From assembly GCF_009914755.1 (NCBI RefSeq), contig NC_060940.1: a stretch of 64,000 bases of DNA. One strand, 5' to 3'. The first letter of the stretch is position 1. Each line of letters opens with the position of its first letter. Position numbers and translations under genes: made by a program. The notes below the pieces were generated by a model. It did not search any database, was not told where the DNA came from, and saw nothing but the letters and a program-made list of their open reading frames with translations. This document shows positions 44,601 to 47,600 of this stretch, one piece after another. The stretch is from the human T2T-CHM13v2.0 reference genome, Homo sapiens.

Positions 44601-47600
44601 GCTGCCTGTCATCAATAATTCCTTAAACAAGGTCTTTGCTGAATCCCAGGCACCTTGGGATAAAATAGTGATCCACACAGAGGTCTCCCTGCCTTTGTGG
44701 AGCCCACATGGATGTAAATTTGGTTGGCTGAGTGCAACTGAGTTCAGATTTCAGTTAAGTCCCACTGAGTGCCACCTACTTTGCCTTCTCGCCACTCTCC
44801 CGGTGGAGCACCTGACTTCCCCCATGCTGCATTCCCATTTGCCTCCAAGAGGCCTCCGTGAACTTCCTGTGTTCTAAGGACTTTCTGGCCACACAATGAC
44901 TTTGCTAATGGCTATTCCATATGTCAGTGACTCTGGAATTCCTGCCTCATGAAATGAAGCTGAATCTATTTAATTCCCCTAAAAGGACTTCAATGAACCG
45001 GGGCATTAAAGAGACCGCAGATGTGATGCAGCCTCACCAGGTATTTGGCTGCCCTTTGAGTCCTATCCACTTCTTGGGGCCAAGTAAGAAGCCTTCTAGA
45101 TTCATCCTTGTCTTTAGCAGAAAATCCATGAGGCCTGTATCCTCTGATGATTCTCCCAACAAACACTGCTGGCCACCTCCAAGCCAGGAGCTGGGCTTCG
45201 GGATAACGACATAACTGTGAACAAAAAACCCTGACCCCATGGAGGATCCAGTCTGATGGAATTGAGGAGCTAAACTTGGAAAAACCTGGATGCCCTGTAG
45301 AACACTTGAGGGCAGCACTTAAGCTGGACATAATTGTTAAAGAAAAAGGCAACAATCATACCTAACATCAGCTAAGACTTACTATGGGCTTAGCATTTTT
45401 ATGTGGTATCTGAGTTCCCCCACCACCTTGTGAAATGGGTACTTCTATGAAATGCATGGTGCTGGTAAAGAAACAGAGGCTTAGGGAGCTTCAGCAAGAC
45501 ATCCAAGGTCAAGCAGCTAGGAAGTGGCTGGGCCTGGAACTGGGGTCCCTCAGGCTCCAGAGGCATTGCATTGCCCCCACTGCTCCAGAGGCAACAATGC
45601 ATTGCCCCCACTTTATCTTCAATTTATTCCACAAAACATTGACTGCATCCTTGAGGCAGGAATTCCAGAGTCACCGACATATGGAATAGCACATTAGCAA
45701 AGCCATTGCGTGGCCAGAAAGCAGCGTCCTTAGAACACGGGAAGTTCACGGAGGCCTCTTGGAGGCACATGGGAAGGCAGGGCGGGGGGAAGTCAGGTGC
45801 TCCACGGGGAGAGTGGCGAGAAGGCAAAGTAGGTGGCACTCATGGGACTTAGCTGAAATCTGAGCTCAATTGCACTCAGCCAACTAAATATCGTTTCCAA
45901 TGAATACGTGGCAGACAGCTTTGTTAGCTATGAGAGGTACCACTCTCACACCAGCTATTGAGCTTGACATTGCATAATAAATAAGAACCTCTCCTTCTAT
46001 AGCGCTTGCACAGGGAAAGAGTGAGTCAACAGGATGAGAGATTAAAATACCAGGCACAAGATTAATGTTGAGCCCTCTGCAGCAAAATCAACACTGCCAC
46101 CCTGGGAGTCTGCTGCTGAGTTCCCAGAGCAAGAAGGAGATGCATGCAGGAGATGCAGGAAGAGGCCAAACATTCCCTAAACCCACAGCGTTGCCTGAAA
46201 TCTCCATCCCCCAATCTTGAGGGGAGAGAACAACAAACAGACTCTGGCTGGCTTGGCTGGCTTAGCCCTTGGCTGGGTTGCTTGTTATCTCAGTTTGCTT
46301 TTTACAAGAGGAGTTTTTGCCGGTGGTTAAGAGCCCAGACTCTGCAGCCAGGTGCCCTGGGTATGAAACCCTCCTCTGCCACTTGCTAGCTATGTGACCT
46401 TGGGCAAGCTATTTAACCCTCTTGTGCCTTAGGCTCCTCAACCATCAAGTAGGGGCAGTTATGATGCCTGGTTATTGAAGTGGTTAAGTGAGTTTATTAT
46501 GTACCTGGTAAATAGTAGTGTTCAAAATTATCAGTCATTATCATCTATCATAATATTCCAATGTGAAATTAAGAACATATCTAGGACAGGAGCAGTGGTT
46601 CATGCCTGTAATCTCAGCACTTGACCCAGGAGGCCAAGACAGGAGAATCACTTGAGGCCAGGAGTTCGAGCCTGGCCTAGGAAACATAGCAAGACCCCAT
46701 CTCTACAAAAAATAAAATAAAATTTAATTTAAAAATTATCCCGCTTTCCCCTGGTAAATAAAAAATTTTAAAAAATTATCCGGGCATGGTGATATATGCT
46801 TGTAGTACCAGCTACTTGGGAGGCTGAGGCAGGAGGATCACTTGAGCCCAGGAGTTTGAGGCCGCAGTGAGTTCTGATTGCACCACTGCACTCCAGCCTG
46901 GGCAAAAGAGTAAGACCCTGTCTCACACACACAAAAAGAGAACAAATCAAAAAAGATTTATGAAACCTAGTCAGTTCAAGCCTAGCCACCTGGAGTGGAC
47001 TGTTCATTCAAAACTGCAACTGACTCTAAGAGAAGTACTGCAAATCAGAATGAATATAACCACCGTCTTCTCCACACTTGGAGAGGGGGCCTCCAATGTT
47101 CATGTACATAGTTTTAAAACTGGGGGAAAAATACAGGGACTCTGGTTAGAGACATCCCATCACCACCTTCAGCTCTAACTGAACTGTATCAGACCTGGAG
47201 AAGGCTGTAGCTATGTAATGCAAGGAGGAGGGCTGGAGGCCACACCTGTGCAACACACACCCACCTTTCTCACCACAAAGCTTATGCTGTGCAGAACCGA
47301 TTTGAGGCTGTCACTTTGCTCCTCTGGGCCAGTGGCTCCCTTGGCTGGTGGACTCCTCTCACTGTATGCCTCTGACCTCTGTTTCTTGCATAAATGCCTT
47401 TTCTGGTTCTGCAATTTCTTTGGGGTACTTTTCCTGCTGGCTTCATGCTCCCATGTCAAGGTGGCATTTGCTAAAAGCAAGACAGTATCTGGGTCTTCTG
47501 GTTGGGTGATGTAAGATGGGGGGCTTTTATCTATGAGAATTTTCTAAGATTAAAGAGACAAAATTAACTGAGCAGATGTCATCCATTTGCAAGAATCATC

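What the first reader, a model, noticed from the sequence alone, without database searches (positions are those of the whole stretch)
44718..45889. Non-Alu inverted duplication of about 232 bp in intron 9 that could form a long RNA stem
Seen: 44718-44949 is the reverse complement of 45652-45889 at about 90% identity (by eye, about 14 substitutions, one 5-nt indel and three 1-nt indels), with a 700-bp spacer. I do not recognise the arms as a common repeat. In the minus-strand pre-mRNA several differences become G-U wobbles and several become A-C mismatches, which ADAR favours. Inference: a local inverted duplication that can give dsRNA, A-to-I editing, or a recombination-mediated micro-inversion of the spacer.
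Basis: partly seen in the sequence, partly recalled or inferred. Interest (0 to 1): 0.72.

Follow-up and report, generated by a model that had tools for sequence, protein, structure and literature searches.

The report
Unique inverted duplication in ABCC12 intron
Two 232-238-base copies of a sequence found nowhere else in the genome face each other across 702 bases inside an intron of the human ABCC12 gene; it is most likely a harmless relic of an old copying error that lets the unspliced RNA fold into a long imperfect double-stranded stem.

Summary
44718-44949 is the reverse complement of 45652-45889: 217 identical columns, 14 substitutions, four indels (5+1+1+1 nt) and a 702-bp spacer.

The arms are not a repeat family. 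Each arm finds only itself and its partner in the whole T2T genome. The same tool recovers an Alu (8,566 candidates) and an old MIR-like element (129 candidates) as controls. There is no target-site duplication, no Rfam hit and no Pfam hit.

Arm divergence (K2P 0.064) points to a primate-age local inverted duplication. The sense pre-mRNA folds into a stem of about 232 bp (z = -39.7 against 20 shuffles). The ten transition differences split 5 G·U to 5 A·C on either strand, so nothing suggests selection for pairing.

The longest perfect identity tract is 36 bp, so inversion by homologous recombination is unlikely. The stem falls short of published criteria for an MDA5 ligand and is intronic.

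Editing, primate orthologues, Dfam and pangenome orientation could not be checked here.

Verdict: a real, neutral-looking member of the known class of non-repetitive intronic dsRNA-forming inverted repeats. Interest is low to moderate. The intron is number 11 of NM_001393797.1, not 9.

The parts
44718..44949 (.). Left arm of the inverted duplication (232 bp). In the minus-strand ABCC12 pre-mRNA it is the 3' half of the stem. It has 3 CpG.
   Evidence: alignment; the only genome-wide matches are itself and the right arm, 2 of 2 candidates scored. CpG count.
44950..45651 (.). Spacer, which forms the loop (702 bp). It is ordinary unique intronic DNA and carries an old MIR-like remnant.
   Evidence: unique in the genome apart from one 53-bp match at 83% identity. 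MIR-like similarity; 0 Pfam families in 4 ORFs; strand skew has the same sign as the surrounding intron.
45433..45539 (.). MIR-like SINE remnant inside the spacer, in the opposite orientation to the MIR-like element at about 46322-46455.
   Evidence: 62-73% identity to three genomic copies of the element found; pair I6; hit at query positions 538-590.
45652..45889 (.). Right arm of the inverted duplication (238 bp). In the minus-strand pre-mRNA it is the 5' half of the stem. It has 8 CpG and is the more G+C-rich arm.
   Evidence: the only genome-wide matches at E<=10 are itself and the left arm. CpG and GC counts.
43091..47264 (-). Host intron (4174 nt), intron 11 of NM_001393797.1. The repeat unit lies 1375 nt from the 5' splice site and 1627 nt from the 3' end. 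No annotated exon lies inside the unit.
   Evidence: The hub's gene table (exons 47265-47543 and 43019-43090), and arithmetic on those coordinates.

Best explanation
This is a single, lineage-specific inverted duplication of about 232 bp of unique intronic DNA, placed about 700 bp from its source inside intron 11 of ABCC12.

Most likely a replication or repair error made it: the growing strand switched to the complementary strand, copied about 232 nt backwards and returned. This corresponds to a '3-2-1-4'-type template switch, or to a templated reverse-orientation insertion during break repair. The arms have since diverged neutrally by about 6%, which places the event roughly in the time of early catarrhine primates.

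Shown here:
- the duplication itself;
- its uniqueness in the genome;
- the absence of transposon hallmarks;
- the predicted folding of the RNA.

Inferred:
- the mechanism of origin;
- the date;
- the consequence. Wherever ABCC12 is transcribed, the pre-mRNA folds into an imperfect dsRNA stem of about 232 bp with a 702-nt loop. Nuclear ADAR can deaminate such a stem before it is discarded with the intron, with no effect on the mRNA or on fitness.
For: 1. Real and non-random. The alignment has 217 of 239 identical columns; E = 8.5e-86 genome-wide.

2. Not a repeat family. The left arm gives 2 candidates (itself and its partner) in 3.1 Gb. The right arm gives the same even at E<=10. The same tool finds 8,566 candidates for the Alu at 46586-46943, 129 for the old MIR-like element at about 46322-46455 at 73-95% identity, and 16 rows for the left flank, which are the query itself plus 15 matches to old repeats. 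It therefore sees both young and ancient repeats.

3. No transposon hallmarks. The flanks at 44717/45890 share no direct repeat, 0 of 4 spacer ORFs hit Pfam, and there is no Rfam hit at E<=1.

4. The spacer looks like older resident DNA. Its MIR-like remnant is only 62-73% identical to other copies, against 94% between the arms.

5. Neutral decay. There are 10 transitions to 4 transversions. Four of the ten transitions have CpG in the right arm against CpA/TpG in the left, and a fifth right-arm CpG lies in the 5-nt indel. The transitions give G·U on the sense strand in 5 of 10 cases, exactly the neutral expectation.

6. Folding. The arms pair in both the MFE and the centroid structure of the 1211-nt sense RNA. 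The 1172-nt unit has MFE -658.7 kcal/mol against -387.7 ± 6.8 for 20 dinucleotide shuffles, z = -39.7. The arm-arm duplex is -431.7 kcal/mol and the longest uninterrupted helix is 39 bp.

7. Mechanism known in print. Template switching that creates new inverted repeats and RNA hairpins in human DNA is described in PMC5453318 (passages read).
Against: - No outgroup genome could be examined. It is therefore not shown that the duplication is derived, which arm is the copy, or whether the spacer kept its orientation.
- As I recall, catalogued template-switch events in apes are mostly tens of bases long and close to their source. In the passages I read only a 14-bp lower cut-off is stated. A 232-bp copy placed 700 bp away would be unusually large for that mechanism.
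- The arms differ asymmetrically: 8 against 3 CpG, and the right arm holds the G/C allele at 10 of 12 strong/weak differences (binomial p = 0.039). Strictly equal neutral decay does not predict this.
- No RepeatMasker or Dfam run was possible, so a very low-copy or very old family underlying the source sequence is not excluded. Such a family would not change the reading of a recent local duplication.
- Editing is wholly inferred.
Confidence: 0.7

Rival explanations
1. Scar of an ancient inversion of about 0.9 kb. One staggered break of about 232 nt and one blunt break were filled in and rejoined, so that the segment was inverted and the staggered stretch was duplicated in inverted orientation at its two ends. 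On this reading the arms are the by-product of an inversion, not its cause, and the present spacer is inverted relative to the ancestor.
For: The architecture fits: unique, non-repetitive inverted duplicates directly flanking a segment. In Drosophila, 17 of 29 fixed inversions carry such duplications. Their median size is 321 bp (range 46 bp to about 1.9 kb), and in 12 inversions the duplication comes from one breakpoint only (PMC1885836, passages read). The 232-bp arms fall inside that range. The homology ends are sharp, as expected of break-and-join.
Against: - The sense-strand T-over-A skew of the spacer (+0.088) has the same sign as the rest of the intron (+0.137) and the window (+0.051). 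Against 88 tiles of 702 bp, the likelihood ratio for 'as is' over 'flipped' is only about 3, so this is weak.
- The model is documented for large Drosophila inversions. I saw no human sub-kilobase example.
- No outgroup was available.
Confidence: 0.2
2. The arms are the long terminal inverted repeats of a DNA transposon, or two independent insertions of one known interspersed repeat.
For: The shape (two inverted arms around an internal segment) resembles a long-TIR element. No Dfam or RepeatMasker run could be made here.
Against: - Each arm has only itself and its partner in the whole genome. The spacer is also unique apart from one 53-bp MIR-like match. Controls show the search detects both Alu and about 75%-identical ancient repeats.
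- There is no target-site duplication at 44717/45890.
- No transposase-like ORF was found: 0 of 4 spacer ORFs hit Pfam.
- Two independent old insertions could not be 94% identical to each other while having no other relative.
Confidence: 0.03
3. A selected, functional RNA hairpin. Examples would be a source of small RNAs in testis, or a structure that modulates ABCC12 splicing or ADAR/dsRNA-binding-protein occupancy.
For: - The predicted stem is very stable (z = -39.7).
- It is the most identical of the 19 inverted pairs of at least 150 bp in the 64-kb window.
- In mouse, MRP9/ABCC12 protein is found essentially in testis and sperm (PMC8832985, passages read), a tissue where I recall hairpin-derived small RNAs having been reported.
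- Its length, pairing and loop size resemble the edited non-repetitive class of dsRNAscan, whose medians are 144 bp, 87.5% paired and a 509-nt loop (PMC11838218).
Against: - There is no excess of pair-preserving changes on the sense strand: 5 G·U against 5 A·C, with 4 further mismatches and 8 bulged nt.
- No exon lies between or inside the arms, so no exon-looping or back-splicing geometry exists.
- No Rfam family matches.
- No paper links ABCC12 with RNA editing (0 papers). The one paper found for 'ABCC12' plus 'inverted repeat' is a review of ABCB1/ABCG2 regulation, judged from its title and the start of its abstract only.
Confidence: 0.05
4. The arms act today as substrates for recurrent inversion of the 702-bp spacer by homologous recombination, giving a polymorphic micro-inversion.
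For: Inverted homologous arms are the classical substrate. [quoted passage not shown]
Against: - The longest perfect identity tract is 36 bp, followed by 28 and 23 bp.
- The micro-inversions in PMC8755829 are 17-33 nt long with flanks of 3-75 nt, a different scale.
- 9 papers hold both 'ABCC12' and 'inversion'. Judged from titles and abstract starts only, none concerns this locus.
- Pangenome haplotypes could not be examined.
Confidence: 0.04

Closest known systems
Non-repetitive intramolecular dsRNAs of the human genome (dsRNAscan catalogue, PMC11838218)
   Same: It is an intronic, intramolecular stem formed by arms that are not interspersed repeats. At 232 bp, about 93% paired columns, a 39-bp longest helix and a 702-nt loop, it sits at or above the medians of the edited non-repetitive class (144 bp, 87.5%, 30 bp, 509 nt). 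The paper predicts about 497,000 non-repetitive dsRNAs, of which 4,597 are edited.
   Different: It is longer and better paired than the typical member.
Template-switch mutations that create inverted repeats (four-point model, PMC5453318; RNA hairpins and new miRNAs from template switching, PMC10710096 and bioRxiv 10.1101/2021.04.15.439925)
   Same: A reverse-complement copy of nearby sequence creates a new inverted repeat able to fold as an RNA hairpin. [quoted passage not shown]
   Different: As I recall, the scale differs: catalogued events are tens of bases long and near their source, while here 232 bp was copied about 700 bp away. The ancestral state was not observed. Of the two hairpin/miRNA papers I saw only the search listing and the start of the abstract.
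Inverted duplications at inversion breakpoints (staggered-break model, Ranz et al. 2007, PMC1885836)
   Same: Inverted duplicates of ancestrally unique sequence flank a segment. The arm size lies within the reported range, and the one-sided duplication is the commoner case there.
   Different: That model was described for large Drosophila inversions. Here the enclosed segment is only 702 bp, and its inversion is unproven and weakly disfavoured by strand skew.
Inverted Alu pairs (IRAlus), the main ADAR substrates in human introns
   Same: Stem length and intronic location are comparable. Identity between arms is higher than in the two other close inverted pairs of this window, which are 77% and 75.5% identical.
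   Different: The arms are not Alu or any multi-copy element. The pair arose by one local event, not two retrotranspositions.

Membership tests
TIR DNA transposon / MITE | Other copies of the element or its termini elsewhere in the genome | tested here: not met
   The arms find only each other and the spacer is unique apart from a 53-bp MIR-like match. Positive controls for young and old repeats worked.
TIR DNA transposon / MITE | Target-site duplication directly outside the two termini | tested here: not met
   The flanks ending at 44717 and starting at 45890 share no direct repeat (sequence, alignment).
TIR DNA transposon / MITE | Transposase remnant (autonomous copies only) | tested here: not met
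   0 of 4 ORFs of at least 50 aa tested from the unit hit Pfam at E<=1. Six such ORFs overlap 44600-46000, and the four tested are the largest ones lying mainly in the spacer. This feature is not required of non-autonomous elements.
Inverted pair of a known interspersed repeat (e.g. IRAlu) | Each arm belongs to a multi-copy family | tested here: not met
   2 candidates per arm, against 8,566 for the neighbouring Alu. No Dfam or RepeatMasker run was available.
Template-switch inverted repeat (four-point model, type 3-2-1-4) | One arm is a reverse-complement copy of nearby sequence on the same chromosome | tested here: met
Template-switch inverted repeat (four-point model, type 3-2-1-4) | A sister or outgroup lineage lacks the copy while the flanks are colinear | not testable with these tools
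   No other eukaryotic genome is held. The genome search states that the window's genome has no relatives here.
Inversion-associated inverted duplication (staggered breaks) | Inverted duplicates of unique sequence abut the two ends of one segment | tested here: met
   The size lies within the 46 bp to 1.9 kb range reported in PMC1885836.
Inversion-associated inverted duplication (staggered breaks) | The enclosed segment is inverted relative to the ancestral order | tested here: inconclusive
   The only proxy was strand-composition skew, which gives a likelihood ratio of about 3 for 'not inverted'. Outgroup alignment was not possible.
ADAR-edited non-repetitive dsRNA (as classed in PMC11838218) | Predicted intramolecular helix of at least 30 bp with arms outside annotated repeats | tested here: met
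   The helix forms in the MFE and centroid structures with z = -39.7. The arms are single-copy, which serves as a proxy for 'not annotated as repeat'.
ADAR-edited non-repetitive dsRNA (as classed in PMC11838218) | Editing sites on both arms | not testable with these tools
Putative MDA5 ligand (criterion of PMC11838218: more than 300 bp and more than 96% paired, present in mature RNA) | Length over 300 bp, pairing over 96%, exonic or 3'UTR location | tested here: not met
   The stem has 232-238 nt arms, 222 of 239 columns are paired (92.9%), and it lies wholly in an intron (hub table). The criterion was read.

The most novel reading that the evidence does not exclude
A single replication template switch about ten times longer than those catalogued in apes created, de novo, a long hairpin-RNA locus in a gene transcribed in male germ cells. 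The hairpin is not inert: it is hyper-edited, or diced into small RNAs in testis. On this reading the asymmetric retention of CpG and G/C in the right arm (8 against 3 CpG; 10 of 12 strong/weak differences) reflects a germline chromatin or methylation difference linked to that activity.
Probability: 0.07. Interest if true: 0.5.

Novelty: new member of a known kind. Interest (0 to 1): 0.25.

Why it matters
As it stands, little. It adds one well-characterised, datable example of a non-transposon inverted duplication that produces a long intronic dsRNA. This class is already counted in the hundreds of thousands by prediction.

It would be modestly useful in two ways. First, as a clean test case for how large a template-switch or staggered-break event can be in primates, because both arms are unique and the junctions are sharp. 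Second, as a non-Alu ADAR substrate with predictable target adenosines. The best candidate is the sense-strand A at window 45885, in a U-A-G context opposite C; that this context is favourable to ADAR is recalled, not tested here.

It does not look relevant to ABCC12 coding, to splicing or to innate immune sensing.

Tried and rejected
- Transposon reading. Rejected on copy number, absence of a target-site duplication and absence of a transposase.
- Known RNA family. An Rfam scan of 44000-46600 on both strands at E<=1 gave 0 matches.
- Tandem-repeat origin. TRF found nothing in the arms.
- Selection for pairing. The G·U: A·C split is 5:5 on each strand, so there is no signal.
- Telling which arm is the original, and whether the spacer is inverted, from transcription-strand composition skew. 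The likelihood ratio is about 3 that the right arm is in native orientation and about 3 that the spacer is not inverted. That is too weak to use.
- Ancient repeats bridging an arm boundary, which would mark the resident arm. None lies at any of the four junctions.
- Junction microhomology. I looked by eye and saw nothing beyond what chance gives after about 6% divergence.
- Literature on this locus. 'ABCC12' with 'inverted repeat' gave 1 paper, a review of ABCB1/ABCG2 regulation, seen only as title and abstract start. With 'RNA editing' it gave 0 papers. With 'inversion' it gave 9 papers, none on this locus by title and abstract start. A looser four-term search listed 10 papers, none of which contains ABCC12.
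Earlier findings of this scan were not open.
- Machine unavailability. Two genome searches failed because the machine was busy, and the same request was answered.
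Full report
**1. Observation**

The repeat finder returns five colinear inverted blocks that tile 44718-44949 against 45652-45889. A global alignment of the left arm with the reverse complement of the right arm has 239 columns: 217 identical, 14 substitutions (10 transitions, 4 transversions) and four gap events of 5, 1, 1 and 1 nt. Identity is 90.8% over all columns and 93.9% over the 231 ungapped ones.

The spacer is 702 bp. Homology ends abruptly at the outer and inner edges. 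A permissive BLAST adds only about 20 weak inner columns.

Chance is excluded: E = 5.9e-74 in the window and 8.5e-86 against the 3.1-Gb assembly.

By the hub's gene table the host intron lies between exon 11 (47265-47543) and exon 12 (43019-43090) of NM_001393797.1. It is therefore intron 11, not 9. It is 4174 nt long, and the unit sits 1375 nt from the 5' splice site and 1627 nt from the 3' end.

**2. What the arms are not**

The window's own genome (T2T-CHM13) could be searched.

- The left arm gives two candidates in the first look, itself and the right arm.
- The right arm, at E<=10, gives the same two.
- The spacer is unique except for a 53-bp match at 83% identity.

Because the tool warns that very common words are skipped, I ran three controls.

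- The Alu at 46586-46943 gave 8,566 candidates, of which 40 were scored.
- The right flank gave 129 candidates for a MIR-like element at about 46322-46455, at 73-95% identity.
- The left flank gave 16 rows, the query itself plus 15 matches to two old repeats at about 43850-44005 and 44303-44378.

The tool therefore sees both young high-copy and ancient diverged repeats, and the arms belong to neither.

Other negative results:

- No direct repeat flanks the unit.
- 0 of the 4 ORFs tested, out of 6 of at least 50 aa overlapping 44600-46000, hit Pfam.
- Rfam gives nothing at E<=1 on either strand of 44000-46600.
- TRF finds nothing in the arms.

Two independent insertions of an old repeat could not be 94% identical to each other and unrelated to everything else. 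A Dfam/RepeatMasker run remains to be done.

**3. What it is**

It is a local inverted duplication of unique intronic sequence. The spacer carries a MIR-like remnant (about 45433-45539) that is only 62-73% identical to other copies, so the spacer looks like resident DNA much older than the arm duplication.

Arm divergence is K2P 0.064. The Poisson 95% interval for 14 substitutions is 7.7-23.5, which corresponds to 3.3-10.2%. From memory, not from a call, this is about the human-macaque genomic divergence. The event would then date to around the ape / Old World monkey split, with a wide margin. Gene conversion between the arms would make it look younger than it is.

**4. How it arose**

Two mechanisms fit.

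*(a) Template switch or templated reverse insertion.* Replication leaves its template, copies about 232 nt of the complementary strand, and returns. In the four-point model this is type 3-2-1-4 / 1-4-3-2, which made up 31% of high-confidence human-chimpanzee events (PMC5453318, passages read). Papers on template switching creating RNA hairpins and new miRNAs exist, but I saw only their listing and the start of their abstracts. As I recall, catalogued events are far shorter, which is a point against.

*(b) Inversion with one staggered break.* This leaves inverted duplicates of the staggered stretch at both ends of the inverted segment. In Drosophila, 17 of 29 inversions show this, with duplicates of median 321 bp (range 46 bp to about 1.9 kb), and 12 are duplicated from one breakpoint only (PMC1885836, passages read).

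The two models differ in whether the spacer is inverted relative to the ancestor. The only internal proxy I had was transcription-strand composition. Sense-strand T-over-A skew is +0.051 for the window, +0.137 for the intron without the unit, and +0.088 for the spacer. Against 88 tiles of 702 bp, the likelihood ratio for 'as is' over 'flipped' is about 3. The same test gives about 3 for the right arm being in native orientation. This is too weak to decide.

I put (a) ahead of (b), roughly 0.5 to 0.2, within a 0.7 confidence in the overall neutral-duplication reading.

**5. What it does**

*As RNA.* The sense (minus-strand) 1211-nt RNA pairs the two arms in both the MFE and the centroid structure. 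The 1172-nt unit has MFE -658.7 kcal/mol against -387.7 ± 6.8 for 20 dinucleotide shuffles (z = -39.7). The antisense strand gives z = -23.9. The arm-arm duplex is -431.7 kcal/mol.

The stem has 217 Watson-Crick pairs, 5 G·U, 5 A·C, 4 other mismatches and 8 bulged nucleotides. Its longest uninterrupted helix is 39 bp.

These values are at or above the medians of the edited non-repetitive dsRNAs in dsRNAscan: 144 bp, 87.5% paired, 30 contiguous bp and a 509-nt loop. That study predicts about 497,000 non-repetitive dsRNAs, of which 4,597 are edited (PMC11838218, passages read). ADAR editing is therefore plausible wherever the intron is transcribed.

In mouse, MRP9/ABCC12 protein is essentially confined to testis and sperm (PMC8832985, passages read). 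If human transcription is similarly restricted, which I did not check, editing evidence may be scarce.

The stem fails that paper's MDA5-ligand criterion of more than 300 bp and more than 96% paired. It is also intronic, where long dsRNAs are tolerated (abstract of PMC7006430).

No exon lies between or within the arms, so I predict no effect on exon looping or back-splicing.

*Selection.* Each transition difference gives G·U on one strand and A·C on the other. The split is 5:5, so there is no sign of selection for pairing in the sense RNA.

*As DNA.* The longest perfect identity tracts are 36, 28 and 23 bp. As I recall, mammalian homologous recombination needs a few hundred bp of near-identity, so recurrent inversion of the spacer is unlikely. 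Published human-chimpanzee micro-inversions are 17-33 nt long with flanks of 3-75 nt, a different scale (PMC8755829, passages read).

**6. Context and novelty**

In this 64-kb window the pair is the most identical of 19 inverted pairs of at least 150 bp. It is one of 3 with a spacer under 3 kb. The other two are about 300-bp and about 190-bp pairs of high-copy elements at 77% and 75.5% identity. Those elements align with the Alu at 46586-46943.

No paper found by four searches links ABCC12 with an inverted repeat, editing, an inversion at this locus, or dsRNA. For those papers I saw titles and the start of abstracts only. The locus may well be listed in the dsRNAscan tables or in REDIportal, neither of which I could see.

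I class it as a new member of a known kind.

**7. Unexplained**

The arms have not decayed alike. The right arm keeps 8 CpG against 3 in the left. It also carries the G/C allele at 10 of 12 strong/weak differences (p = 0.039; the CpG contrast of 5 against 0 gives p = 0.06). Without an outgroup the changes cannot be polarised. Different germline methylation of the two arms, or GC-biased conversion, are possible causes.

**8. Limits**

No other eukaryotic genome, no Dfam/RepeatMasker, no editing or expression data and no pangenome were available.

Noticed in passing
window 44718-44949 vs 45652-45889: The two arms decayed asymmetrically. The right arm keeps 8 CpG and the left 3. At 10 of 12 strong/weak differences the right arm has G or C (binomial p = 0.039). 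One difference gives the right arm a G-rich run with a central CpG around 45780-45790.
   Followed up: partly
window 45554-45612: A near-tandem duplication of a unit of about 28-31 nt lies inside the spacer, 40 nt from the inner edge of the right arm. I saw it by eye. TRF did not report it at minimum score 30. It forms a local hairpin in the fold, and it may be a second small replication-slippage or template-switch event at the same spot.
   Followed up: no
window 45433-45539 and about 46322-46455: Two MIR-like SINE remnants lie in opposite orientation (pair I6). They form a much weaker and older inverted pair that overlaps the unit.
   Followed up: partly
window 17943-18229 / 18755-19067 and 52166-52356 / 54177-54365: These are the only other close (under 3 kb) inverted pairs of at least 150 bp in the window. 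They are 77% and 75.5% identical and are made of high-copy Alu-like elements. They are further potential dsRNA stems in the ABCC12 pre-mRNA.
   Followed up: no
window 43850-44005 and 44303-44378: Two old interspersed-repeat remnants lie in the left flank. They account for the 15 non-self genomic matches, at 70-85% identity. I did not identify the family.
   Followed up: no
window 43091-47264: The host intron has a strong sense-strand T-over-A skew (+0.137 without the repeat unit), against +0.051 for the whole window.
   Followed up: no
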